A stretch of DNA of 36,879 bases, taken from positions 1-36,879 of IMG/VR virus record IMGVR_UViG_3300045988_121423; one strand, written 5' to 3'. Every line of letters starts with the position of its first letter. Position 1 is the first letter of the stretch. Source of the DNA: a virus. Below, piece by piece: positions 1 to 36,879 of this stretch. The position numbers were made by a program, and so were the translations under genes. Below the pieces are notes generated by a model. It was given only the letters and a program-made list of their open reading frames with translations, was not told the origin of the DNA and searched no databases.

Positions 1-259
1 CCTCCATCAGCGCGTTGCTGCGCTCCATTTGCGCGGCGATGCGGCCCTCCATCTGCGAGCGCTCGCGGTCGCGCTGCAGGCGCTCGGCAACCTCGGCCTG
101 CTTGCGCTCCTCGCGCTTCACGTCCAGGCCGGCCTTGCGCTCGTTCTGCTTCCTGAACTCCTCCAGAAACTGTCGGCCGAAGTAGAACAAGATGAGCGCC
201 AGGAGCACGCCGCCGAGCCACCACGGGCCGTACGGCGCGAACAGCTCCAGAATTTCCAC
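1..259 (-). CDS. N-terminal part (start codon and transmembrane helix) of a membrane-anchored coiled-coil protein, a putative lysis accessory protein. The gene spans the circular junction and continues at 36670..36824.
   Basis: GTG start at about 259 lies 6 nt after an AAGGAG RBS. Translation is VEILELFAPYGPWWLGGVLLALILFYFGRQFLEEFRKQNERKAGLDVKREERKQAEVAERLQRDRERSQ, continuing in-frame into MEGRIAAQ... at the window end. One hydrophobic TM segment is followed by a charged coiled-coil region. It sits between the XkdX-like gene and the holin. Confidence 0.55.
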   Translation of the reverse strand, partial: MEILELFAPYGPWWLGGVLLALILFYFGRQFLEEFRKQNERKAGLDVKREERKQAEVAERLQRDRERSQMEGRIAAQMERSNALME

Positions 260-261
260 GC

Positions 262-411
262 CTACTCCTTCTTGGACGCCTTGATGGCCTCCATCTCCTT
301 CTTGGTGATCTTGCCCGCCTGCAGCAGCTGCTCCAGGCTCTCGTCATTGTAGAAGCCCGCCAGGTACCATTTCTGGATGCGTTGGGCGTATCGGCTCAGC
401 TTCACGGCCAC
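262..411 (-). CDS. XkdX-like small phage protein (49 aa)
   Basis: Translation VAVKLSRYAQRIQKWYLAGFYNDESLEQLLQAGKITKKEMEAIKASKKE matches the XkdX-family pattern WY..G.....L..L..G.IT..E...I. A GGAGGTGGAG RBS precedes it. It lies in the canonical position between the tail fibre genes and the lysis cassette, as in PBSX. It is below the 60-aa cut-off of the ORF track. Confidence 0.55.
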   Translation of the reverse strand: MAVKLSRYAQRIQKWYLAGFYNDESLEQLLQAGKITKKEMEAIKASKKE

Positions 412-597
412 CTACTCCACCTCCCCCGGCATGCTGTCGTCTTCGTCATCGCCTGGCAGCTCAACGTCTGCGCATGCCGCGACGAGCTCCATCAGCGCCT
501 CTTGGCGCTCCGCCTTGCTCTCCAGGTTCTCCTGGCGGCGGGAGGCGGCGAGGTCGTCGGGCGCCTTCTTGATGTCTAGCATCGGTGCTCCTTCCAT
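412..597 (-). CDS. Hypothetical small acidic protein (61 aa)
   Basis: The ORF has very high GC3. Translation ends ...VELPGDDEDDSMPGEVE. It overlaps the RT 3' end by 22 nt, consistent with translational coupling. Confidence 0.5.
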   Translation of the reverse strand: MEGAPMLDIKKAPDDLAASRRQENLESKAERQEALMELVAACADVELPGDDEDDSMPGEVE

Positions 598-1580
598 AGT
601 TCCTTGTACCAGGCGTCACAGCGCCTGATGAGCCTGAAGCTGTCGCCCTTGCCCGCGTGGTTGCGCCATGCTCGGTAGCTCTCGTCCACTTCAGCGCGCA
701 TGATGCGCCCCTTGAGGCTCAGCCTCGCCATCTTCGCTATGCGCCGCCGCATCTCCTTGACGTTCGACGGCTTCACGAACATGAGGACCTTGCCCGTGTC
801 GGTCAGGTGGAAGTCAAAGCCCAGGAATGGCACGCCGTCCCGCAACGGGTACACGCGCGATTTCTTCGGGTTCAGCTCGAAACCCAGGTTATTCAGGGTG
901 TCGCCGAACGCTTCCAGGGCGCGCTCGGCCTCCTCGCGGGTGGCGAAGATGGCCACGGCGTCGTCCATGTACCTGACGTAGTTCCTGATGCCCATGCGGT
1001 CTTTCGCCATATGGTCGAGCGGGTCCAGCACGCTGATGCCGGCTATCTGTATCATCTGGCTGCCCGGGTTGTAGCCGACCTCGCCCGGGTACTGGTTCCG
1101 CATGACCGCCATGGCCATGGCCATGATCTCGGGCGGCAGCTTACGGGCGAACGCCGCCTCGGCCGTCTCGTGCCGCATGTTCGGGTAGTAGCCCGCCACG
1201 TCCATCTGGCATACCCAGCCGTTCGGCCCGTTCTTGCGGTAGTGGCGGCGCATGAACTCCTTCAAGCGCTCGCGGGCGTAGTCGGTGCCCTTGCCCTTCC
1301 GGCATGCCGCGTTGTCCGATATGAAGCCGCGCACCATGCGGGGGTAGATGCTGTTGTCGTTGAGGCTGCGCTGGAACACGCGGTCGGCGAAGCCCACGCT
1401 CACGATGGTGCGGCGCTTGGGCCTCGTCACGTAGAACTCCCGCGTGGGCCCGCACCTGAACGTGCCCGCCTGCAGCTTGCGGCTCATGGCCAGCGTGCGC
1501 TCTGACAGGTTCAGCATGTAGCTGGCGGCGCTGTCCTTCCATATGACGCCGCGCCGGCACTTCTTCGCGCTCTCCCTCAA
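576..1580 (-). CDS. Diversity-generating retroelement (DGR) reverse transcriptase
   Basis: The RT motifs are QMDVAGYYPNM (motif A), GYNPGSQMIQIAGISVLDPLDHM (motif B with the DGR-type SQ...PLDH signature) and RYMDDAVAIF (YMDD, motif C). The N-terminal block FRCGPTREFYVTRPKRRTIVSVGFADRVF...CRKGKGTDYARER parallels Bordetella phage BPP-1 bRT (YRPGAYTHFFIHEPKRRKI...RVGKGTHRALDR). It is about 334 aa with no maturase or endonuclease domain. The annotated TTG start is uncertain, and the N-terminus may extend upstream. Confidence 0.9.
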   Translation of the reverse strand: MRESAKKCRRGVIWKDSAASYMLNLSERTLAMSRKLQAGTFRCGPTREFYVTRPKRRTIVSVGFADRVFQRSLNDNSIYPRMVRGFISDNAACRKGKGTDYARERLKEFMRRHYRKNGPNGWVCQMDVAGYYPNMRHETAEAAFARKLPPEIMAMAMAVMRNQYPGEVGYNPGSQMIQIAGISVLDPLDHMAKDRMGIRNYVRYMDDAVAIFATREEAERALEAFGDTLNNLGFELNPKKSRVYPLRDGVPFLGFDFHLTDTGKVLMFVKPSNVKEMRRRIAKMARLSLKGRIMRAEVDESYRAWRNHAGKGDSFRLIRRCDAWYKELWKEHRC

Positions 1581-1762
1581 AGCAAAGAACCCGACGACGC
1601 CGTTCAGCTCGCCGGGTTCCAGTTCGGGTGTGGGTCCGGGGCGCGCGATAGCCGCCCGCGTTCCAGCCGCGTCGGCGTCGCCCCGGCGTTGTTCGGCCCT
1701 CTCGGGCTCGGGGTCGCGGCTCCCCGCGCCGGTTTCGCCCCGCCCCGGATTGGTATCGATGG
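1581..1762 (-). other. GC-rich 182-bp spacer between the RBP stop and the RT start. It is the expected location of the DGR template repeat (TR) and/or the IMH and hairpin, but this is not verified.
   Basis: This is the only sizeable non-coding gap next to the RT. It contains in-frame AAC codons (ccg aac aac gcc ... ccg aac tgg aac ccg) and small GC hairpins such as cgggg-agccgcga-ccccg. By eye I found no adenine-restricted alignment to the last 130 nt of the upstream RBP gene. Confidence 0.3.
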
Positions 1763-2980
1763 CTAGATGGCGCGGGCGGGAGCACAGCGCAGCGCGCCCT
1801 GCGCGTTGAGGTAGTGGACGGTGCCCGACGCGTTCACGAGGAACGTGTTGCCGCCGCCGTTGCGACTAGCGGAACGCGTCCAGACGCTCTGTGGACTGGT
1901 CTTGCCGTTGATGGCGTAGGTGATCAGCTGCGGCCACGTCTGCCACAGCGCCAGCGGCGTCGGGGACTGCGCGACGCGCGCCCAGTACTCCCACGCCTCG
2001 CCCTCCTTGCCCTTCATGCCGGACTCGCCGAGCGCCAGGAAGTGCTCCTCCATGCTCGGCAGGAACACGAGGTCGTAGGTGGTGTCCAGCACCGGCTCGC
2101 TGTCGGTGCCCTCCTCGCAGTAGGGCACGCCGGTGACGACCTTCACGCGGCGCATGACGGCCAGCTCGGCCTCGGGGATGCCGTCCAGGAAGCCGCGCTT
2201 GCCGACGTACTCCGGCGGGCGGTCCCACTTGTTCTGCGGCTTCCACCAGTTCGTGCCCTTGCCGTTGAGGTACTGGCGCAGCGCGGACTGGCTCCAGCGG
2301 TTGTAGCCGTAGGCGCAGCGGTAGATGCTGTTCATGTTGCCGTTCGGCTTGGTGCCGATGGTGCCCAGGCTCGTGCCCTGCGCACCCTCGCTCATGCCCA
2401 CCGTCTCGATGGGGTCGGCGTCGCTCACGGTCTTGTAGGACTTGACCTGCCACGTGCCCGGGTCGCGGTCCGGTGCGTACTCCATGCCGGCCAGCACGCC
2501 GCCCTTCGGCACGCCCTTGGCGAGCGTGAACTGGTAGGTCTTGCCCTTGACCACGTTGGTGCCCCACGAGGCGCCCATGATCAGGTTGTAGGTGCCCGCG
2601 GCCAGCGCGGCCTCGCAGTACCAGAAGGCCTCCTTCTGGTCGAACTGCGTGCCGAAGGGCAGGGTGTAGTGCCACTGCAGGATGGTGCCGGGCAGCTTCT
2701 CGCCGTCCTGCAGTTCCAGCTCGGCGGGGAAGTGGCACACGTCGTTGGCCACGTCGTAGGCGGTGCCGCCGTCCGGGTCGGTCCACTTGGAGGTGATCTG
2801 GTCTCCGATGCCGAGCACGTAGGGCGCCAGGCCGTCGCGGCTCATGCGCGCCAGGCCGTCCCAGTTCGTCTTCAGCGCCGCAACCTTGTCGTGCGCCATC
2901 GCCTGCAGCGCGCCCGCGATGGCGCGGCCCGTGTCGTCGGTGATGATGGGGTATTCCACGATGGTGTTCTCTGTTGCCAC
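1763..2980 (-). CDS. Tail fibre receptor-binding protein with a C-terminal FGE/C-type-lectin (CLec) fold. It is the probable DGR target protein.
   Basis: The C-terminal region ...FLPSMEEHFLALGESGMKGKEGEAWEYWARVA...VWTRSASRNGGGNTFLVNASGTVHYLNAQGALRCAPARAI* resembles the FGE-sulfatase/CLec motif RLPTEAEWEYAARGG...GFRC found in DGR variable proteins such as Mtd and TvpA. The last 35 codons are rich in NNC codons (AAC GGC GGC GGC AAC ... ACC GTC CAC TAC CTC AAC). The gene is immediately upstream of the RT. GTG start. Confidence 0.6.
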   Translation of the reverse strand: MATENTIVEYPIITDDTGRAIAGALQAMAHDKVAALKTNWDGLARMSRDGLAPYVLGIGDQITSKWTDPDGGTAYDVANDVCHFPAELELQDGEKLPGTILQWHYTLPFGTQFDQKEAFWYCEAALAAGTYNLIMGASWGTNVVKGKTYQFTLAKGVPKGGVLAGMEYAPDRDPGTWQVKSYKTVSDADPIETVGMSEGAQGTSLGTIGTKPNGNMNSIYRCAYGYNRWSQSALRQYLNGKGTNWWKPQNKWDRPPEYVGKRGFLDGIPEAELAVMRRVKVVTGVPYCEEGTDSEPVLDTTYDLVFLPSMEEHFLALGESGMKGKEGEAWEYWARVAQSPTPLALWQTWPQLITYAINGKTSPQSVWTRSASRNGGGNTFLVNASGTVHYLNAQGALRCAPARAI

Positions 2981-2981
2981 G

Positions 2982-3665
2982 TTACGCCTTCTTTCTCACG
3001 GCCACGCACAGCTGGCCCTTGTCGTTGACGGTGATGCCGTTGGTCAGGCCGAGCACGGCCTTCTCCCACTCGGCCATCTTCCGGCTGTAGTTGCTCGCGC
3101 GGTCGGCCTCTGCCACCACGCGCCGCGCCTCCTCCTCGACGCGCGCCTGCTCCTGCGCCGTGGCCTTCTCCGTGATGGCCGTGCAGGAGTTGATGGCGGC
3201 GGTCGCCTGGCGCGTGATCTCGTCGGCGTTGGCCGCCATCTCCTGGGACTGCTCGATGATGCGGTCCAGCATCGGCACGTACGCGCCGGTGACGGCGTCC
3301 GTCAGGTCCACGTTGTCCAGCACCTCGATGCGCAGGCTGTTGGTGGAGCCCGTGAAGTCCTGACCGACCACGCGGAAGTACGCCATGGTGATGGAGCCGC
3401 GCACGGCCGCAACTGCGTCGGGGAAGCGGTACGTGAACTGCCCCGATTGGTCCTTGACGGTCACCTCCTCCATAATGGGGCGGCCGCCTGCGTTCTCCGC
3501 CATGAACGACACGGTGCAGGCGGCCAGGTTCACGGGCTCGCCGCCGTCGAGCAGCTGGAACGTGCGCTCCAGGCTTCGCGAGTCGCCGCGCCTGGCGCGC
3601 AGGCAGACCACGGGCATGAACTGCGTGCTGGTCTTCTGCAGGTCCAGCACGATGATCTCCCTCAT
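2982..3665 (-). CDS. BppU-like baseplate upper protein, N-terminal region of the tail fibre
   Basis: The N-terminal 120 aa (MREIIVLDLQKTST...VSFMAEN...AYFRVVG) resemble the BppU_N domain of lactococcal P335-type phages, and the C-terminal half is a helical coiled-coil. It sits directly upstream of the receptor-binding protein gene. Confidence 0.5.
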   Translation of the reverse strand: MREIIVLDLQKTSTQFMPVVCLRARRGDSRSLERTFQLLDGGEPVNLAACTVSFMAENAGGRPIMEEVTVKDQSGQFTYRFPDAVAAVRGSITMAYFRVVGQDFTGSTNSLRIEVLDNVDLTDAVTGAYVPMLDRIIEQSQEMAANADEITRQATAAINSCTAITEKATAQEQARVEEEARRVVAEADRASNYSRKMAEWEKAVLGLTNGITVNDKGQLCVAVRKKA

Positions 3666-3678
3666 CTCTTCTCCTCTC

Positions 3679-3927
3679 TCATCCGATGGTTCCCAGCACG
3701 ATGCCGCCGCTCGGCAGCATCAGCACCAGCGCTATATCGCCGGCCTTCGCGGAGACGCCGGACAGCTTCGCGCACGGCGTCGGCTCGTCGGCCCCTCGCA
3801 GCAGCACGTTGACCGTGCCGCCGGACACGGAGCGCACGGGCGCCCTCGTGTGGTACTCGCGCGGTCCCGATTCCGGCCACAGGGCGCGCGCCAGCTCGTC
3901 CGCCAGCTCGCCGCTATTTGTCGACAT
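3679..3927 (-). CDS. Hypothetical small beta-rich tail or baseplate protein (82 aa)
   Basis: The ORF has high GC3 and lies within the tail-tip gene cluster, between the Tal-like and BppU-like genes. It overlaps the upstream gene by 14 nt. Confidence 0.5.
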   Translation of the reverse strand: MSTNSGELADELARALWPESGPREYHTRAPVRSVSGGTVNVLLRGADEPTPCAKLSGVSAKAGDIALVLMLPSGGIVLGTIG

Positions 3928-5029
3928 GCCATGCCACCTTCCCGCTCGTCTCGATCTTGAAGTCCGGGCGCAGCAGGCGGCGCATGGTGATGGTCGTCTC
4001 GCCGCCCGGGCCGAAGTCCACCTCCTTGGCGGTGATGCCGCCCGTGAACCTCTTGCCCGAGCGCTCGTAGTCGACCAGCCCGCACTCGCCGACCTGCGCC
4101 GGGACGAACAGCCCGGGCACCGTTACGTACTCGATGCGCGTGGAGTTGTCCGCCAGCTTCTTCTCCGCAAGCGCCTTGAGCGCCGCCAGCATCTTCTCGG
4201 GCGTGTCGCCGGACAGCTCGGTCACCTCGTCGTCCAGCTGGCGCTCGCGGCGGCGGACCATGGTGCTCGCCTCGCTGCGCGGGTCGTCGTTGCGCGCCTC
4301 GGCGAACAGGCCCACCGAGTCGTCCTCGTACCACAGGCGCACCACGTTTGGCGTGTCCGCCCTGTTGTCCTTGGCCTTGATGGCGGGGAACGAGAAGCCC
4401 GTGCCGTCATCCGGGAACGTCCAGGTCGCCTCGCGCTCGGTCGGCTCGACGTACGGCTGCATCTGCACGGTTCCCCACGCGTCGGTGGTGGCGCTGCCGA
4501 AGCCCGCCGCCGACAGCAGCCAGTTGGCGATGCCCAGCCAGCTCTCGTCGCGCTCGAACGTGTGGGGACTTGAGAGCTTGTACGCGGACGGCGCGGCGGT
4601 GACGGGAAGGCCGAGCGCCCGCAGATGCTCCGCCGCCGTCTCGACGGCCTTGGTGCCTGCGGGCAGCGTGAGCGGGCAGCCGGGGCCGCACGTGGCCACC
4701 GTGAGCATGCCCGCCAGGTCTGCGCTGCCGCTCACGAGCGCGCCCTCCAGGCTCGTCTCCCCGACTTCGAGGAAGCCCGTGGCCACCGGCCCCTCCCAAC
4801 GCTCGCCCCACTGGTTCGTGAAGCCGTAGTAAACGCGGATTGCGTCGGACTCGTCGGGCACCGCCGCGCCCTCGAAGTCGATGGAGCCGGTGACCTTCAG
4901 CTCCTTGAACATGCTCTCGGACGACTTGCCGCCGGTGATCTGCCAGTAGTCCTCGGCCTCCTCCATGCTCGGCCACTTCACGCGCCGGAACGTCCAGTGC
5001 TCCTTGTATCTGCTGCCGTCCCATCTCAC
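3914..5029 (-). CDS. Tail-associated protein; a Tal-like baseplate hub, gp27-like in size
   Basis: At 371 aa it matches the size of the N-terminal hub domain of siphovirus Tal proteins, for example lactococcal phage p2 ORF16. Its position follows the Dit-like gene. No lysin domain was recognised. The call is based on position and size. Confidence 0.4.
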   Translation of the reverse strand: MRWDGSRYKEHWTFRRVKWPSMEEAEDYWQITGGKSSESMFKELKVTGSIDFEGAAVPDESDAIRVYYGFTNQWGERWEGPVATGFLEVGETSLEGALVSGSADLAGMLTVATCGPGCPLTLPAGTKAVETAAEHLRALGLPVTAAPSAYKLSSPHTFERDESWLGIANWLLSAAGFGSATTDAWGTVQMQPYVEPTEREATWTFPDDGTGFSFPAIKAKDNRADTPNVVRLWYEDDSVGLFAEARNDDPRSEASTMVRRRERQLDDEVTELSGDTPEKMLAALKALAEKKLADNSTRIEYVTVPGLFVPAQVGECGLVDYERSGKRFTGGITAKEVDFGPGGETTITMRRLLRPDFKIETSGKVAWHVDK

Positions 5030-7446
5030 AGGGCATCACCGTCCGTCCTCGTCACGTTGAGGGACACGTCCCACGCCTGCTCCGCGTTGCCCAGCGACGG
5101 CGTGAACGACGCCTTGGCCACGCCGTGGAACACGAAGCCGTACAGCGTCTTGAACACCATCGGCTCGCAGCTGCGCACCGCCTCGTAGAACCGCATGGCC
5201 TCTTCCCTGCTCTTGAGCCTCACGGTCATGTCGTGCGGCTCCTCCACGTTCTCGCTCGACACGACGACCGGATAGCGCTTGCCGGCAATCTGGTACGTCG
5301 AGAAGCTGGGCTCCACGCTGAACTCGTCGCCCGGCGCGTACATGCCGCTGGCGATGCCGCCGGACCAGTACACGAACAGCAGCGGCGACCCGATGCGGCC
5401 GGGGTAGCTGGCCTCGCTCACGGCGCCGGAGTCGGCGAAGCTGGCCGTCTCGTAGCTGTAGTCCGTGTTCAGCGGCGCGTATCGGTCCACGACCATGGAG
5501 CCGTCGTGCAGGTCTTCCGCGAGCAGGGTGCGCACGCCGCCGACGTTGCGCCACAGGCTGCACGTCTTCATGGCCACGGCGGCGTCGGTTCGGCCCTCGC
5601 GCACCGTTACCGCGACATAGCCCGTGGACGGGTCCGGCACGGCGTCCGCGACTGCCGTCGATGGCAGCACGTACGACACCGACACCGCGCGCGAGGCGCT
5701 GGCCTGCAGCGTGGAGCTTGAGCGCACGGACGCCTCAAGCGTGTAGGCGGCCCCGTCGCGCGGCAGCCACTCGCCGCTGCGAACGTCGAACTCCAAGCCG
5801 TCCATGAGGTCTCGCGAGAACACGGCCGCGCCGTCCGCGTCGCGCACGGTCAGGGTGCCGGCCGCCAGCTCGCCGCTCGGGTCGCTGTATCGAATCAGCA
5901 CGTGCACGGGCGTGTTCTCGATGGCGAAGTCGTCGGCGGGCTGCTCGATGGTCACCGTCGGCACCTGCCGCACGTACGTCGATACGGCGACCGACCACGG
6001 GCCGAAGTCCGCATGGGCGCCCTTGGTGCGGGCCTGCACGGTCAGCTTGGCGTTGACCGCGAACGAGTTGTCCAAGGAGGCGGAGGACGCGCCGCCGTTC
6101 ACGTCCGCCACATGCCACGTCGCGCCGCCGTCCGTGCTCCATCGCCACTGGGCGGCCGTCTGCGCCGAGCCGTCGATGGGGTTGTGGCGCCACGCTACCG
6201 TTATGCTCGCCTGTGTCTTCGGGATGACCTGCGAGCTTGACGGCGACGTGATCGTGGGGGCCGCGGGCGCGCAGATGGTCACGATGCCGTCCGACTCGAC
6301 CCATGCGCTCGCGAGGTCTCCGCATACGTTGCGAACGCGGTAGTACCACGTGCCTCCGCCGGGGTCGTCCTCGAAGTCCGTCGCCTTGCCACGCGTGGTA
6401 CGGACCGCCGTCCACGTTTCCAAGTCCGGGCTTCGCTCTATCTCGGTGCCCGTCGCGGTGTTCGCCCCGTTCTCGAAGACTCCCTTCACCTTGGTGTCGG
6501 ACACGCGGGACATCTTCGGTTTGCCCGGAGCGCACGGGGTGTTGTAGACGGTGCCGGTCTCGACCCACGCTGAAGCGCCCGCGGCGTTGCGGCTTCTCAC
6601 GCGGTATCGCCACGAATGGTTCGCGCTCGTCGAGCGGTCCACCTTCGTGCTGCCCGCCGCTTCGATGGCGCCGAAGTCCGACCATGCGCCGGCGTCCATC
6701 TGGCGCTGCACGTCGTGCGCCAGGTACAGGCCGGCGCATGGGCTTCCTGGCACGATGGACAGCGTGTTCTGCGTGTCGGAATCGCGCGCCACGCTCGCGG
6801 ACTTCGGTGCGTTCGGCGTCGTTGCTACTGCGTTCGTGTACTGGTGCGCGGGGGCGTTCCCCGCGCTGTTGTGCGGCAGCACTCGGAACTTGTACAGTCG
6901 GTTCGGCTCAGCCTGGTACGTGTACGCCGTGACGTCTCCGCCGCAGTCCTCGGCCAACTCGTACTCGCCGTCGTCTATGGACACGTCGACGTACACGCCG
7001 TCGTATGGGCGCGCGTCGGTCGTGTTGCTGCGCCACGTCACGAGCACCGTTCCGTTGCTTCGGAGGACTGCTACCTGGCTCATGACGTTGTTGGGCTTCC
7101 ACGTCGGCACGTCCGGGCTGTACCATGCGTCCACGGAGCTGTTGTAGCGGGTGTTGGACCGGCCCAGGTACCACACGGACGCGCTCACGTGCGCGCTGCC
7201 GCCGTAGCCGACCCAGCCGTAGTCCTGCCACCCGCTGTCGCCGTACCATCCCGTGCCGTACAGCCGCAGGCGCCCGCCCCACGAGGTGTCCGCGATGGTG
7301 CCGCCGAAGTTGCCGCTGTCGACGTAGCAGCTCTGCTTGTACTGGACCCATGCGCGGCCCTCCTCCTGTGCGGAGGTTCGGAACTCGACGTAGGCGTACA
7401 TTTTCGCGTCGGGGCCGCTCGCATTTCCCCAAAATCCCTTGGCCAT
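5026..7446 (-). CDS. Large distal-tail or adhesion protein (806 aa) with three fibronectin-type-III repeats and a W/Y/G-rich N-terminal segment; Dit-like by position
   Basis: The FN3 repeats are evident, for example VLRSNGTVLVTWRSNTTDARPYDGVYVDVS...YKFRVLPHNSAGNAP, ...HSWRYRVRSRNAAGASAWVE... and ...GTWYYRVRNVCGDLASAWVE.... The N-terminal segment is SWGGRLRLYGTGWYGDSGWQDYGWVGYGGS. The gene sits immediately after the tape measure gene. Confidence 0.45.
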   Translation of the reverse strand: MAKGFWGNASGPDAKMYAYVEFRTSAQEEGRAWVQYKQSCYVDSGNFGGTIADTSWGGRLRLYGTGWYGDSGWQDYGWVGYGGSAHVSASVWYLGRSNTRYNSSVDAWYSPDVPTWKPNNVMSQVAVLRSNGTVLVTWRSNTTDARPYDGVYVDVSIDDGEYELAEDCGGDVTAYTYQAEPNRLYKFRVLPHNSAGNAPAHQYTNAVATTPNAPKSASVARDSDTQNTLSIVPGSPCAGLYLAHDVQRQMDAGAWSDFGAIEAAGSTKVDRSTSANHSWRYRVRSRNAAGASAWVETGTVYNTPCAPGKPKMSRVSDTKVKGVFENGANTATGTEIERSPDLETWTAVRTTRGKATDFEDDPGGGTWYYRVRNVCGDLASAWVESDGIVTICAPAAPTITSPSSSQVIPKTQASITVAWRHNPIDGSAQTAAQWRWSTDGGATWHVADVNGGASSASLDNSFAVNAKLTVQARTKGAHADFGPWSVAVSTYVRQVPTVTIEQPADDFAIENTPVHVLIRYSDPSGELAAGTLTVRDADGAAVFSRDLMDGLEFDVRSGEWLPRDGAAYTLEASVRSSSTLQASASRAVSVSYVLPSTAVADAVPDPSTGYVAVTVREGRTDAAVAMKTCSLWRNVGGVRTLLAEDLHDGSMVVDRYAPLNTDYSYETASFADSGAVSEASYPGRIGSPLLFVYWSGGIASGMYAPGDEFSVEPSFSTYQIAGKRYPVVVSSENVEEPHDMTVRLKSREEAMRFYEAVRSCEPMVFKTLYGFVFHGVAKASFTPSLGNAEQAWDVSLNVTRTDGDAL

Positions 7447-14353: not shown

Positions 14354-14971
14354 CTAGTTCTTCTTCAGGCCGAACGCGCGGTCGAGCTCCGCGTCGTCGT
14401 CGCCTGCGGTCCCTTCGGGCTTCTTGCCCGTGGTGCCGGTCTGTTTGTCCTTGCCGAACAGGTACGGGCACTCCTCCTTGAGCTTGGCCACGTCGCCGTC
14501 GTAGTCGTCGAGCAGCGCCTTGGCCGCCTTGGCGTTCACGCAGCCCGCCAGTTCCAGCCTGTGGGCCACCTTCTCGTCGTCCAGCTCGGCCTTCATGTCA
14601 TCAAGCTTCTTCTGGAGGTCGTCGCGCCCCTCCTTGGTCTTGGCCGCCTCGTCGATCTGCGCCTGCAATTCGGCGATGCGCTTGTCCTTGGCCGCCAGGT
14701 CGCGCTCGTACTTGTGGCGGTTCACGGTCGCGCCGGACTTGCCGCCCTCGCCTGCTCCGCCGCCGTCTCCGTCGTTGCCCTCCTGGCCATCGCCGCCCTG
14801 CGGCTCCGTGCCGGCGCCCGCCGGCTCGTTGGCCTTGGGCTCGTTGCCCTCCTGGCCCTCGCCGCCCTGCGGCTCCGTGCCGGCGCCCGCCGGCTCGTTG
14901 GCCTTGGGCTCGTTGCCCTCCTGGCCCTCGGTTCCTTCGGCCGCCTTGTTGTCGGGGTCTTGCGCTCCCAT
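14354..14971 (-). CDS. Scaffolding protein
   Basis: The protein is 205 aa. Its acidic N-terminus carries a 23-aa tandem repeat (EGQEGNEPKANEPAGAGTEPQGG x2, from a 69-bp DNA repeat), and its C-terminus is coiled-coil. It is upstream of the major capsid gene. Confidence 0.75.
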   Translation of the reverse strand: MGAQDPDNKAAEGTEGQEGNEPKANEPAGAGTEPQGGEGQEGNEPKANEPAGAGTEPQGGDGQEGNDGDGGGAGEGGKSGATVNRHKYERDLAAKDKRIAELQAQIDEAAKTKEGRDDLQKKLDDMKAELDDEKVAHRLELAGCVNAKAAKALLDDYDGDVAKLKEECPYLFGKDKQTGTTGKKPEGTAGDDDAELDRAFGLKKN

Positions 14972-33726: not shown

Positions 33727-35238
33727 GTGGCCAACGCCGTCATATACGCCAGGTACAGCAGCGCGGGCCAGCGCGAGGAGTCCATCGAGGACCAGGTGCG
33801 TGTGTGCCGCCAGGCCGCCGAGCGCGACGGCGCCGCCATCGCCCGCGTGTACCACGACGCCGCCACAACGGGGCGCACCGCCGAGGGCCGCGACGGCTTT
33901 TTGCGCATGGTCGCCGACGCGCGCCGCGGCCTGTTCGACGTCGTGTACGTGTACAAGCTGGACCGCTTCGCGCGAAACCGCTACGACGCGGCCGTGTACA
34001 AGGCCAAACTGCGCCGCTGCGGCGTGGAGCTGCGCAGCGCCACGGAGGCTGTCGGCGACGGCCCCGAGTCCATCCTGCTGGAGTCGATGCTTGAGGGCCT
34101 GGCCGAGTACTACAGCGTGGCCCTGGCGGAGAACGTCAAGCGCGGCCAGCTGGGCAACGCCATGAAGTGCAAGCACAACGGTGTGCGCACGTACGGCTAC
34201 GACCTCGGCGAGGACGGCTACTACCACGTGAACGAGGAGGAGGCCGCCGTGGTGCGCCGCATGTTCCGCATGTACGCGGACGGCGCGAGCATGCCCGAGA
34301 TAGCGGCGGCCATGCCGGAGGCGCGCACGAAGATGGGCAAGCCGCTGTCCGTCGGGTTCATCAGCAAGAGCCTGCGCCTGGAGAAGTACCGGGGCGTGTA
34401 CAGCTACGGGCAGACGCGCGTGGAGGGCGGAATGCCCGCCATAGTCGACGGCGAGCTGTTCGAGGGCGTGCAGGGGATGCTCGCCGCCCGCGCGAGGAGG
34501 AGGCGCAGCACCATGGAGTATCTGCTTTCAGGCAAGCTGTTCGACGCGGAGGGCCACCGCTACCAGTCCAGCAGCGGCCACGGGAAGTCCGGCAGGAAAT
34601 ACACGTATTACCGCTGCCCGGCGACGGGCCACCAGGTGCCGCAGCACGTGCTGGAGGACGCCGTGGCCAAGGCCGCCGCCGACGTGATCGCCGCGGACGA
34701 CGACGCGGTGGAGGCCATCGTGGCCATGGTGATGGCCGCGCAGGCCGAGGAGATGGCCGACTCCATCGCCGCCGCGGACGCGACGCGCAAGCGGCTGGAG
34801 CAGAACGCGCGCGAGCAGTCGCGCGTGGTCGACCTCGCGGCCAAGACGGGGGCCGTCGACGCGGTGGCCGCCAAGCTCGGGCAGCTGGCCGACGAGAGGG
34901 AGGAGCTTGAGGCGTCGCTCGCGGAGATGGAGCTGTCGTGCGCCATGGTCGACGAGGAGCGGGCGGAGTTCTGGGTGCGCAGGCTCATGGGCCGCTCCGA
35001 CCCGCTGGAGGCCGTGCGCCTGTTCGTGGACCGCGTCGTGCTCGACAGGGAGGCGGGGGAGATGCGCGTCGCGTTCTCGTTCGACGGCATAAAAAAGAAC
35101 CCCCACCAGGCTGAATCTGATGGGGGTTCGCGTAACTGTCGACTGGCGGGGCACTCGCTACTTATAGCGAACACCATGGTGCACGTCACGGCCTGGGGTT
35201 TCGTCGCGGCGGTGCGCCTGCCTATGCTTGGGGCATGA
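33727..35238 (+). CDS. Large serine recombinase (phage integrase)
   Basis: The resolvase catalytic N-terminus is VIYARYSSAGQ...SIEDQ. It is followed by a recombinase domain, a zinc ribbon (YYRCPATGHQVPQH) and a coiled-coil. The last 50 codons have low GC3 and overlap palindromes, so the true C-terminus is uncertain. Confidence 0.9.
   Translation: MANAVIYARYSSAGQREESIEDQVRVCRQAAERDGAAIARVYHDAATTGRTAEGRDGFLRMVADARRGLFDVVYVYKLDRFARNRYDAAVYKAKLRRCGVELRSATEAVGDGPESILLESMLEGLAEYYSVALAENVKRGQLGNAMKCKHNGVRTYGYDLGEDGYYHVNEEEAAVVRRMFRMYADGASMPEIAAAMPEARTKMGKPLSVGFISKSLRLEKYRGVYSYGQTRVEGGMPAIVDGELFEGVQGMLAARARRRRSTMEYLLSGKLFDAEGHRYQSSSGHGKSGRKYTYYRCPATGHQVPQHVLEDAVAKAAADVIAADDDAVEAIVAMVMAAQAEEMADSIAAADATRKRLEQNAREQSRVVDLAAKTGAVDAVAAKLGQLADEREELEASLAEMELSCAMVDEERAEFWVRRLMGRSDPLEAVRLFVDRVVLDREAGEMRVAFSFDGIKKNPHQAESDGGSRNCRLAGHSLLIANTMVHVTAWGFVAAVRLPMLGA
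35091..35130 (-). terminator. Rho-independent terminator for the leftward lysis operon, lying inside the integrase 3' region
   Basis: On the minus strand the sequence is gaaccccca-tcagattcagcctgg-tgggggttc followed by TTTTTTAT. Confidence 0.65.
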
Positions 35239-36669: not shown

Positions 36670-36876
36670 TTAGTTGCTTGTTTCCTTGTCGTACAGCAGG
36701 TCAACGCGGTCGGCGATGTGGTCGACCTTCGCCGCCATGCCCTGGCTGCGCGCCTGGCTGTTCGCCAGGTCGGCGTGCAGCACCTCGTTGGAGGTCACGA
36801 CGGACTCCATGAGCGCCTTCATGGCCTCCATCAGCGCGTTGCTGCGCTCCATTTGCGCGGCGATGCGGCCCTCCAT
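36670..36876 (-). CDS. C-terminal part of the junction-spanning membrane-anchored coiled-coil protein. It is the same gene as 1..259, and 36825..36876 duplicates 1..52.
   Basis: Translation is MEGRIAAQMERSNALMEAMKALMESVVTSNEVLHADLANSQARSQGMAAKVDHIADRVDLLYDKETSN*. It is in-frame with the N-terminal part at the window start. Confidence 0.55.
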   Translation of the reverse strand: MEGRIAAQMERSNALMEAMKALMESVVTSNEVLHADLANSQARSQGMAAKVDHIADRVDLLYDKETSN

Positions 36877-36879
36877 CTG
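36825..36879. repeat. 55-bp terminal direct repeat identical to positions 1..55. It is either a circular-assembly overlap or a genuine terminal redundancy.
   Basis: There is an exact match of cctccatcagcgcgttgctgcgctccatttgcgcggcgatgcggccctccatctg at both window ends. A single ORF reads through the junction. Confidence 0.9.

What the first reader, a model, noticed from the sequence alone, without database searches (positions are those of the whole stretch)
576..2980. Phage-encoded diversity-generating retroelement: a DGR-type RT about 180 bp downstream of a tail-fibre receptor-binding protein with an FGE/C-type-lectin C-terminus
The 334-aa minus-strand ORF carries all the RT motifs in the DGR-specific form: motif B GYNPGSQ...LDPLDHM with the SQ substitution, YMDD, and an N-terminal block closely paralleling BPP-1 bRT (RPKRRTI / EPKRRKI). 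It has no maturase, RNase H or endonuclease domain. It sits between the tail-fibre genes and the lysis cassette, which is the classic place for phage DGRs. The RBP upstream ends in a CLec/FGE-fold signature (GEAWEYWARVA ... RNGGGNTFLVNASGTVHYLNAQGALRCA). Its last 35 codons are dominated by NNC codons, as expected for an AAC-templated variable repeat. This points to tropism switching of this phage's receptor-binding protein.
Basis: partly seen in the sequence, partly recalled or inferred. Interest (0 to 1): 0.85.

Follow-up and report, generated by a model that had tools for sequence, protein, structure and literature searches.

The report
Crippled phage DGR: template deleted
This Collinsella gut phage carries the reverse transcriptase and the hypervariable receptor-binding gene of a diversity-generating retroelement, but a 632-bp deletion has removed the template repeat and the Avd helper gene, so in this genome the system is a frozen remnant, not a working tropism switch.

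Summary
There is a 334-aa DGR-clade reverse transcriptase at 576-1580(-). It lies 182 nt downstream of a 405-aa gene at 1763-2980(-) that sits in the RBP position and ends in a DUF6273/C-type-lectin-like domain.

- **No template or Avd.** The window is a whole circular phage genome (55-nt terminal overlap). It contains no template repeat (TR) and no Avd gene.
- **Relatives are intact.** Every other relative whose locus is fully covered by a gap-free contig carries VR - hairpin - avd - TR - spacer - RT. This includes sibling Collinsella prophages that are 99.8-99.9% identical, five of them with an identical RT protein.
- **The deletion.** The window lacks 632 bp, joined at a 5-nt microhomology (GCGGG, 1739-1743). 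The deletion removes half of the hairpin downstream of VR, avd, the TR and the first ~43 nt of the spacer RNA.
- **The VR is genuine.** The surviving VR (1769-1891) differs from the siblings' TR at 18 positions, all of them TR adenines. It is a real product of past mutagenic homing that is now frozen.
- **Recurrent loss.** Two other independent junction types occur in the same tight clade.
- **Not a misassembly.** The junction lies outside any shared k-mer.

This is a known kind of system in a defective state, of low to moderate interest.

The parts
576..1580 (-). DGR-clade reverse transcriptase gene, 334 aa with a TTG start (an alternative ATG at 1517 gives the 313-aa product that gene callers report). 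It is intact, contains YMDD, and is identical over 334/334 residues to the RT of intact sibling prophages.
   Evidence: Identity to L044/L045/L047/L048/L050. Start-codon comparison across relatives.
1581..1738 (-). The retained 3' part (~158 nt) of the DGR RNA spacer that lies between TR and RT in intact relatives. It is nearly invariant across relatives whose RT genes differ by up to ~25% at the nucleotide level. It contains a predicted hairpin with compensatory changes.
   Evidence: Alignments A1 and A3. Consensus fold with compensatory pairs at A4 columns 131/152, 132/151, 133/150 and 135/147.
1739..1743 (-). Deletion junction. The 5-nt microhomology GCGGG is shared by the VR-side flank and the TR-side spacer. 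The 632 bp present in intact siblings (L048 5928-6559) are missing here.
1744..1762 (-). Remnant of the flank downstream of VR. Together with the junction bases it keeps only the 5' arm (GGGGCGGG, 1739-1746) of the 9-bp-stem, 4-nt-loop GC hairpin that follows VR in intact siblings.
   Evidence: DNA folds of the intact sequence against the window: -13.2 kcal/mol (z = -2.85) against no hairpin.
1769..1891 (-). Variable repeat (VR), 123 nt, encoding the last ~41 residues of the target protein. It differs from the canonical family TR at 18 positions, all of them TR adenines. It keeps the VR-type 3' end CCCGCCCGCGCC, where the TR has CCCGACCGAACC.
   Evidence: hypergeometric P = 2.6e-12.
1763..2980 (-). 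DGR target gene, 405 aa. It has N-terminal helices, a beta-rich middle domain and a C-terminal DUF6273/C-type-lectin-like domain that carries the VR. From its position directly after BppU_N it is the presumed receptor-binding protein.
   Evidence: DUF6273 is described as a CLec-like DGR target domain in PMC10743442 and PMC11792537.
2982..3665 (-). Context: a baseplate upper protein homologue (BppU_N) directly upstream of the target gene. This places the target in the RBP position.
   Evidence: (PF10651, 1.4e-12).

Best explanation
The window is the complete circular genome of a temperate siphovirus-like phage of Collinsella, a human gut bacterium. Its lineage carries a standard phage DGR, arranged as target gene with 3' VR - GC hairpin - avd - TR - ~200-nt spacer - RT.

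In this genome a 632-bp deletion joins a point 20-24 nt (window 1739-1743) after the target stop codon to a point ~43 nt after the end of the TR, at the microhomology GCGGG. The deletion most likely arose by replication slippage or illegitimate recombination next to the hairpin and between the imperfectly repeated VR and TR flanks; this mechanism is an inference.

The deletion removed four things: the 3' arm of the hairpin, the avd gene, the whole TR, and the 5' part of the spacer RNA, which is predicted to pair with the TR 3' end. What remains is an intact RT gene, a truncated spacer and an intact target gene. The VR of that gene is the last product of adenine mutagenesis before the loss.

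Without template RNA and Avd the RT has nothing to copy, so the receptor-binding specificity is locked.

Shown here: the absence of TR and avd, the breakpoints, the adenine-only signature of the VR, and the intactness of the RT. Inferred: the deletion mechanism, the loss of activity, and the RBP role of the target.
For: 1. **Complete genome.** Bases 1-55 equal bases 36825-36879.
2. **No TR/VR pair.** A-tolerant ungapped scans of every diagonal on both strands and an A-wildcard local alignment of the 182-nt gap against the genome found nothing. The canonical TR of the siblings hits only the VR, at 1777-1891.
3. **The scan works on relatives.** It found clean pairs with A-only or nearly A-only mismatches in 3 of 3 phage-database relatives, 13 of 14 IMG/VR relatives (the exception, L005, has an overwritten TR slot) and 11 of 11 Collinsella genome loci with enough upstream flank.
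4. **One copy where relatives have two.** blastn shows window 4947..1739 matching locus 1..3210 and window 1892..1 matching locus 3676..5580. Alignment A1 shows the switch from the VR flank to the TR spacer. Breakpoints and size.
5. **Avd is gone.** The 136-aa ORF between VR and TR in relatives is Avd (phrog_3206, 2.9e-13). The best tblastn hit in the window has E = 6.8.
6. **Very close intact siblings exist.** L042, L044, L045, L047, L048 and L050 are 99.8-99.9% identical in the flanks. Five of them (all but L042, which differs at one residue) have an identical RT protein.
7. **VR signature.** All 18 of the window VR's differences from the TR are at adenines. Across 13 clade members, 31 of 36 variable VR columns are TR adenines.
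8. **Independent assemblies.** The same junction and the same VR appear in contigs from MEGAHIT, JGI and ENA pipelines (L036, L037, L038). The same junction with a different VR appears in a Logan contig (L039).
9. **Not an assembler join.** The longest exact run shared by the VR and TR sides is 20-21 nt, and the junction lies outside it.
10. **The VR looks frozen.** Every other clade contig has a unique VR, but the window, L036 (which differs by 1 SNP elsewhere in the target gene), L037 and L038 share one.
Against: - No reads were available, so I cannot exclude that the source sample also held an intact copy or that the deleted form was a subpopulation.
- L036, L037 and L038 may come from the same cohort or even the same sample, so their independence is uncertain.
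- Contigs that share a junction type carry different VRs: L039 against the window for type A, and four different VRs for type B. This requires either repeated independent deletions at the same short homologies or continued diversification in trans. The first is assumed, not proven.
- Loss of function is inferred from the missing parts and was not measured.
Confidence: 0.85

Rival explanations
1. Trans-complemented remnant. The VR, which keeps its VR-type 3' end, and perhaps the RT are still used, with Avd and TR-spacer RNA supplied by an intact sibling DGR prophage in the same Collinsella cell. Diversification would then continue despite the deletion.
For: - Contigs with the same junction type carry different VRs, and these differ at TR-adenine positions: type A in L039 against the window, and type B in L033, L034, L040 and L041.
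- The TR is identical in many siblings.
- Scaffold L035 has an N-gap exactly at the type-B breakpoints, as expected if intact and deleted forms co-exist in one sample.
- The RT is kept perfectly intact.
Against: - Types A and B have lost part or all of the hairpin downstream of VR. This element is required for efficient retrohoming in BPP-1 (PMC3240598).
- The window's VR is identical in L036, L037 and L038, including one contig with a SNP elsewhere. That fits a frozen VR.
- SNP haplotypes are star-like and do not group contigs by junction type, as expected for recurrent recent events.
- No co-resident helper was observed.
Confidence: 0.08
2. Assembly artefact. The real phage has an intact DGR, and the assembler collapsed the VR and TR repeats, dropping avd and TR.
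For: VR and TR are ~85% identical 123-nt direct repeats 620 nt apart, which is a classic source of collapsed assemblies. VR is heterogeneous in populations. One scaffold (L035) breaks at this locus.
Against: - The junction is not inside the repeat. It lies at a 5-nt microhomology downstream of both copies.
- The longest exact run shared by the two sides is 20-21 nt and is located elsewhere.
- The identical junction is produced by four different pipelines: MEGAHIT k127, JGI, ENA scaffolds and Logan.
- A collapse would give a VR 5' / TR 3' chimera with the TR-type end CCCGACCGAACC. The window has the VR-type end and an intact stop codon.
Confidence: 0.04
3. A complete, autonomous DGR, with a cryptic or highly diverged TR in the 182-nt gap or elsewhere in the genome.
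For: The RT is DGR-type and intact, and the target and VR are genuine.
Against: - The 182-nt gap aligns base for base with the siblings' VR flank plus the distal part of the spacer, not with the TR.
- The A-wildcard alignment of the gap against the genome scores at background level.
- Whole-genome scans are negative.
- There is no Avd.
Confidence: 0.02
4. The orphan RT has been repurposed, for example as a defence or other cDNA-producing enzyme, and is kept for a function unrelated to VR diversification.
For: The RT ORF and ~158 nt of conserved structured RNA upstream are retained in all three deletion types. There are weak PADLOC matches to UG4 and UG17 RT models.
Against: - Retention is explained by ascertainment. 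The deleted contigs were found by exact match to the RT protein.
- The RT is identical to that of intact DGRs, so there has been no time or sign of divergence.
- The best PADLOC hit is the generic RT model, and NCBIfam DRT scores are far below their cut-offs.
Confidence: 0.01

Closest known systems
Intact sibling Collinsella prophage DGRs, e.g. GCA_003339885.1 PPTV01000006.1 (L044), L045, L047, L048, L050 and the IMG/VR contigs L004, L006, L012
   Same: The phage backbone is the same (99.8-99.9% nucleotide identity in the flanks for L044-L050). The RT protein is identical, the target gene is the same, and the spacer sequence is the same.
   Different: The siblings carry the 9-bp hairpin, the 136-aa Avd, the 123-nt TR with 35 adenines and the full spacer. 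The window lacks these 632 bp.
Bordetella phage BPP-1 DGR (mtd, avd, TR, brt)
   Same: The RT is the best structural-sequence match (8ub7_A, 1.6e-17). The VR sits at the 3' end of a tail receptor-binding gene with a C-type-lectin-type fold. The family shows adenine-specific TR-to-VR differences. In intact siblings a GC hairpin lies just downstream of VR, as described for BPP-1 (PMC3240598).
   Different: RT identity is only ~28%. The target is DUF6273 rather than Mtd. In this genome there is no TR, no avd and only half of the hairpin.
Gut Firmicutes phage DGRs with DUF6273 targets: Faecalibacterium phages (Lelie, Roos, Pioen; FP_Brigit and FP_Toutatis RTs), Roseburia phage Shimadzu, phages nd4 and nd12
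   Same: The RT belongs to the same PHROG and is 30-37% identical. The target carries a DUF6273/C-lec domain with the VR at the domain's C-terminal end (PMC10743442 and PMC11792537).
   Different: Those elements have a TR, and sometimes two VRs (for nd12). The host phylum differs (Actinomycetota: Collinsella) and the GC content here is 69%. The window's copy is defective.
Treponema denticola TvpA (2y3c) and other CLec-fold or FGE-fold DGR variable proteins

Membership tests
Diversity-generating retroelement (DGR) | Reverse transcriptase of the DGR clade | tested here: met
   phrog_1423 at 2.3e-74. The best PDB hit is BPP-1 bRT at 1.6e-17. The closest phage and prophage homologues all sit next to bona fide TR/VR pairs.
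Diversity-generating retroelement (DGR) | A template repeat (TR) in the same element or genome that pairs with the VR and differs from it almost only at TR adenines | tested here: not met
   There is no such pair in the complete circular genome. The siblings' TR matches only the VR itself. The positive controls worked.
Diversity-generating retroelement (DGR) | A variable repeat at the 3' end of a target gene that bears the adenine-mutagenesis signature | tested here: met
   Window 1769-1891(-) against the canonical family TR gives 18 mismatches, all 18 at TR adenines (P = 2.6e-12). Across clade members, 31 of 36 variable columns are at adenines.
Diversity-generating retroelement (DGR) | Accessory variability determinant (Avd) gene. 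It is present in this phage family's intact elements but is not universal among DGRs. | tested here: not met
   Relatives encode a 136-aa Avd (phrog_3206, 2.9e-13). tblastn of that protein against the window gives a best E of 6.8.
Diversity-generating retroelement (DGR) | Target-site elements: an IMH-type VR 3' end and a hairpin/cruciform downstream of VR | tested here: inconclusive
   The VR-specific 3' end CCCGCCCGCGCC is retained. The 9-bp-stem, 4-nt-loop hairpin of the siblings is cut in half. IMH function cannot be tested in silico.
Diversity-generating retroelement (DGR) | Variable protein with a C-type-lectin-type fold (here DUF6273) that displays the VR | tested here: met
Diversity-generating retroelement (DGR) | Ongoing adenine-specific heterogeneity of the VR in the source population | not testable with these tools
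   No reads were available. Indirectly, the window's VR is identical in L036, L037 and L038, whereas every other clade contig has a unique VR.
Retron | Retron-clade RT with an adjacent msr/msd non-coding RNA | tested here: not met
   Retron RT structures score far below bRT (3e-6 against 1.6e-17). There is no Rfam family hit in the whole window. The RNA upstream is the DGR spacer shared with intact DGRs.
Group II intron RT/maturase | A maturase (X) domain and intron RNA domains flanking the ORF | tested here: not met
   TIGR04416 scores 79.6 bits against a cut-off of 300. Only RVT_1 is found in Pfam. There are no group II intron Rfam hits.
Defence-associated RTs (DRT/UG/Abi) | Membership of a UG/Abi RT family together with its characteristic fused or neighbouring effector | tested here: not met
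   The best PADLOC hit is the generic RT model, and UG4 and UG17 are weaker. NCBIfam Drt models score 16-30 bits against cut-offs of 200-450. The neighbours are tail and lysis genes.

The most novel reading that the evidence does not exclude
Loss of avd-TR in this widespread Collinsella prophage may be more than random decay. It could be a recurrent, hotspot-driven 'lock-in' event: hairpin-stimulated slippage between the imperfectly repeated VR and TR flanks would freeze a successful receptor-binding variant while sparing the target gene and the RT. Alternatively, the RT+VR remnants could persist as satellites whose VR is still rewritten in trans by intact sibling prophages. Three independent junction types, and several different VRs on the same junction type within a clade that is at least 99.5% identical, are compatible with either idea.
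Probability: 0.1. Interest if true: 0.55.

Novelty: new member of a known kind. Interest (0 to 1): 0.3.

Why it matters
**For annotation.** An RT of DGR type next to a lectin-fold tail gene is not enough to call an active DGR. Here the short RT-target spacing is the scar of a deletion. The TR/VR test, which TR/VR-based DGR detectors rely on, fails.

**For biology.** A common human-gut Collinsella prophage carries an evidently active DGR: each of the 12 other VRs compared in the clade is unique, and nearly all variation falls on TR adenines. Derivatives that have lost the template arise repeatedly from it. This gives a natural set of 'on' and 'locked' phages that differ by ~630 bp. Such a set could be used to measure what DGR activity costs or gains a temperate phage in the gut, and to test trans-action of DGRs between co-resident prophages. 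The kind of system itself is well known.

Tried and rejected
- **TR hidden in the 182-nt gap.** Rejected. The gap aligns to the siblings' VR flank plus distal spacer, and it has no A-tolerant match anywhere in the genome.
- **TR or a second VR elsewhere in the genome.** Rejected. The only repeats are a 69-nt tandem, a 15-nt tandem and the 55-nt terminal overlap.
- **Avd elsewhere.** Rejected.
- **VR/TR homologous crossover as the cause of the deletion.** Rejected as stated. The junction lies downstream of both repeats, and the VR-type 3' end and stop codon are preserved.
- **Misassembly.** Judged unlikely.
- **Exact junction searches.** Searches in IMG/VR and the JGI metagenome collection found nothing. 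The junction was found only through exact-protein look-ups.
- **'All contigs with this RT are deleted'.** This turned out to be a look-up bias. In intact elements the TR reading frame runs open into the RT, so gene callers report a 462-aa product. Intact siblings with the identical RT exist.
- **NNC-codon argument for a VR.** Not significant.
- **Known RNA families.** Rfam scan of the whole window gave no hit.
- **Avd identification.** phmmer against PDB gave nothing and Pfam was below its cut-off. PHROGs identified it.
- **Haplotypes.** SNP haplotypes do not separate recurrent deletion from trans-diversification, because the population is star-like.
Full report
**What is in the window.** The 36,879-nt window has identical first and last 55 bases, so it is a circularly assembled, complete phage genome with 69% GC. 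Nearly all genes are on the minus strand. In order they are: large terminase, SPP1-type portal, minor capsid protein 2, scaffold, a tail protein with a Big_2 domain, tape measure, distal tail proteins, a BppU_N baseplate protein, the 405-aa gene of the finding, the RT, small ORFs (one XkdX-like), an amidase, and a serine recombinase on the plus strand. Close relatives are prophages in Collinsella genomes and MAGs from the human gut.

**Checking the observation.**
- The ORF 576-1580(-) is a 334-aa reverse transcriptase: RVT_1 5.7e-12 and phrog_1423 2.3e-74. No other domain reaches Pfam's cut-off.
- Its best solved relative is the BPP-1 DGR RT (8ub7_A, 1.6e-17). Group II and retron RTs score many orders of magnitude weaker.
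- NCBIfam group II and DRT models score far below their cut-offs. The best PADLOC match is the generic RT model.
- The upstream ORF 1763-2980(-) is 405 aa and carries Pfam DUF6273 over residues 223-387.
- An AlphaFold model built on 42 homologues is confident: pLDDT 90.6, pTM 0.87.
- Published work describes DUF6273 as a C-lectin-like domain that carries the VR in gut-phage DGR targets (PMC10743442, PMC11792537).
- Two details are not. The NNC-codon excess is not significant against the gene's own GC3 bias (p = 0.22). In the HMMER alignment the canonical DGR 'SQ' corresponds to IQ here, the cited GSQ lies three residues upstream, and the BPP-1 block reads EPKPRLI.

**The defining feature is missing.** A DGR needs a template repeat (TR).
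- I scanned every diagonal of the genome on both strands for ungapped segments whose mismatches fall on adenines of one copy. I found only a 69-nt tandem repeat, a 15-nt tandem repeat and the terminal overlap.
- An adenine-wildcard local alignment of the 182-nt RT-target gap against the whole genome scored at background level.
- The same scan, used as a positive control, found clean TR/VR pairs (9-21 mismatches, all or nearly all at adenines) in three phage-database relatives, in 13 of 14 IMG/VR relatives (L005 is the exception, described below) and in all 11 Collinsella genome loci with enough upstream sequence.
- In all of those loci the order is VR - ~500 nt containing a ~136-aa ORF - TR - ~200 nt - RT.
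- That ORF is Avd (phrog_3206 'Avd protein of DGR', 2.9e-13). The window has no homologue (best tblastn E = 6.8).

**What happened.**
- blastn against the close relatives splits the window into two blocks that overlap by ~150 nt. Window 4947..1739 matches the target, VR and flank. Window 1892..1 matches TR, spacer and RT. So the window has one repeat copy where the relatives have two.
- The alignment shows the window following the VR side through the VR-type 3' end (CCCGCCCGCGCC), the stop codon and 20-24 further bases. It then switches to the spacer sequence that lies ~43 nt downstream of the TR.
- Compared with an intact sibling (L048), 632 bp are missing (L048 5928-6559). The junction is the 5-nt microhomology GCGGG at window 1739-1743.
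- The lost segment comprises the 3' arm of a 9-bp-stem, 4-nt-loop GC hairpin just downstream of VR (folded: present in the sibling, absent in the window), the avd gene, the entire 123-nt TR and the start of the spacer.
- In BPP-1 a hairpin/cruciform immediately downstream of VR is required for efficient retrohoming and is conserved among phage DGRs (PMC3240598).
- A consensus fold of the TR-end-to-RT region in 13 relatives predicts that the TR 3' end pairs with the spacer. It also predicts a hairpin with compensatory changes in the part the window retains. This is a prediction only.

**The VR is genuine and the loss is recent.**
- The window's VR (1769-1891) differs from the TR shared by L004, L006 and L019 at 18 of 123 positions. 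All 18 are TR adenines (35 adenines in the TR; P = 2.6e-12).
- Intact siblings found through the exact BppU protein (L042, L044, L045, L047, L048, L050) are 99.8-99.9% identical to the window in both flanks. Five of them have an RT protein identical over 334/334 residues; L042 differs at one residue.
- The RT start (TTG at 1580) is the same as in intact siblings. More distant relatives use an ATG one codon downstream or nine codons upstream.
- The RT is therefore intact, and the deletion postdates an active DGR by very little.

**Recurrent loss, and a look-up bias.**
- An exact look-up of the 313-aa RT product found 18 contigs. Nine of the ten shown lack avd-TR, and the tenth (L035) has an unresolved N-gap at this locus.
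- They fall into three junction types. Type A is as in the window (L036-L039). Type B is joined at ...CCATCGATGCC|TGCGGCGCAG (L033, L034, L040, L041; L035 has a scaffold N-gap at this point). Type C is joined after the hairpin (L032).
- None of these types can be derived from another by further deletion, so they are independent events.
- This enrichment is an ascertainment effect. In intact elements the TR reading frame runs open through the spacer into the RT, so gene callers report a 462-aa product and the 313-aa query only retrieves deleted copies.
- The phage is widespread: the BppU protein is listed in 608 blocks of the collection. Nine of ten places returned for it are intact.
- Within the tight clade, 13 of 13 compared VRs are distinct, and 31 of 36 variable columns are TR adenines (P ~1e-19).
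- The window, L036 (one SNP elsewhere in the gene), L037 and L038 share one VR. That is what a frozen VR predicts, although these contigs may come from one cohort or sample.
- SNP haplotypes are star-like and do not group contigs by junction type.

**Artefact?** The junction lies outside the repeat. The longest exact run shared between the VR and TR sides is 20-21 nt and lies elsewhere. The same junction is reported by MEGAHIT, JGI, ENA-scaffold and Logan assemblies. A collapsed repeat would give a chimeric VR/TR with the TR-type end, which is not what is seen. I consider misassembly unlikely, but I could not look at reads.

**Mechanism and verdict.**
- In the intact family the system works as a canonical DGR. 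Avd and RT copy the TR-spacer RNA into adenine-mutagenised cDNA, which replaces the VR at the 3' end of the presumed receptor-binding gene. This mechanism is established for BPP-1 and is inferred here from homology and the adenine signature.
- In this genome the template, Avd and part of the target-site hairpin are gone. The element cannot diversify on its own, and the receptor-binding specificity is fixed.
- The most likely origin is slippage or illegitimate recombination at short homologies in the imperfectly repeated flanks of VR and TR, next to a GC hairpin (inferred).
- The main open alternative is diversification in trans by an intact sibling prophage. It would explain the different VRs on the same junction type, but it is disfavoured by the loss of the hairpin and by the shared VR of the window group.
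- The finding is a real but defective member of a well-known kind of element.

Noticed in passing
window 1-55 and 36825-36879: An exact 55-nt terminal direct overlap. The contig is a circularly assembled complete genome, so the deleted phage was present in excised, replicating or concatemeric form. An ENA scaffold (XIEH16-1_SAMEA3449254 scaffold_1025, 39,297 nt) starts at the same base and is 100% identical over window 1-5980.
   Followed up: partly
L005:3677-3799 (IMGVR_UViG_3300045988_087323): This is a second mode of DGR decay in a 98%-identical relative. The TR slot holds a VR-like, adenine-depleted copy with 17 A instead of 35, but it keeps the TR-type 3' end. The element's own VR differs from it at many non-adenine sites and by a 3-nt indel. 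It looks like the TR was overwritten, either by VR-to-TR conversion or by homing into the TR.
   Followed up: partly
L042-L051, e.g. L048:6334-7722; corresponds to window 576-1766(-): In these high-GC phages the TR reading frame runs without a stop through the spacer into the RT. Gene callers therefore annotate a 462-463-aa 'RT' that starts before the TR and overlaps avd. This is an annotation artefact, and it biases exact-protein look-ups toward deleted copies. In the window the RT frame is likewise open up to 1766.
   Followed up: yes
L032-L041 (junctions aligned): Three independent avd-TR deletion junctions (types A, B, C) occur in a phage clade that is at least 99.5% identical, and contigs that share a junction have different VRs. 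Scaffold L035 has an N-gap exactly at the type-B breakpoints, which suggests that intact and deleted forms co-exist in that sample.
   Followed up: partly
window 14772-14930: A 69-nt tandem repeat, 2.3 copies at 98% identity, in frame (23 codons) inside the scaffold-like protein gene 14354-14971(-) (weak Pfam Phage_scaffold match).
   Followed up: no
window 18810-18875: A perfect 15-nt tandem repeat, 4.4 copies, inside ORF 18759-19541(-). This is a 260-aa protein with no Pfam hit, located between the terminase and the portal.
   Followed up: no
window 1581-1738 and A3/A4 alignments: The ~200-nt spacer between TR and RT is almost invariant across relatives whose RT genes are only 74-85% identical at the nucleotide level. 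The predicted fold pairs the TR 3' end (GCTCCC) with spacer GGGAGC and contains a hairpin with four compensatory pairs. No Rfam family covers it.
   Followed up: partly
window 33727-35238 (+): A large serine recombinase (Resolvase + Recombinase domains) is among the few confidently called plus-strand genes. In related contigs the prophage is flanked by a host SurA/rotamase gene.
   Followed up: no
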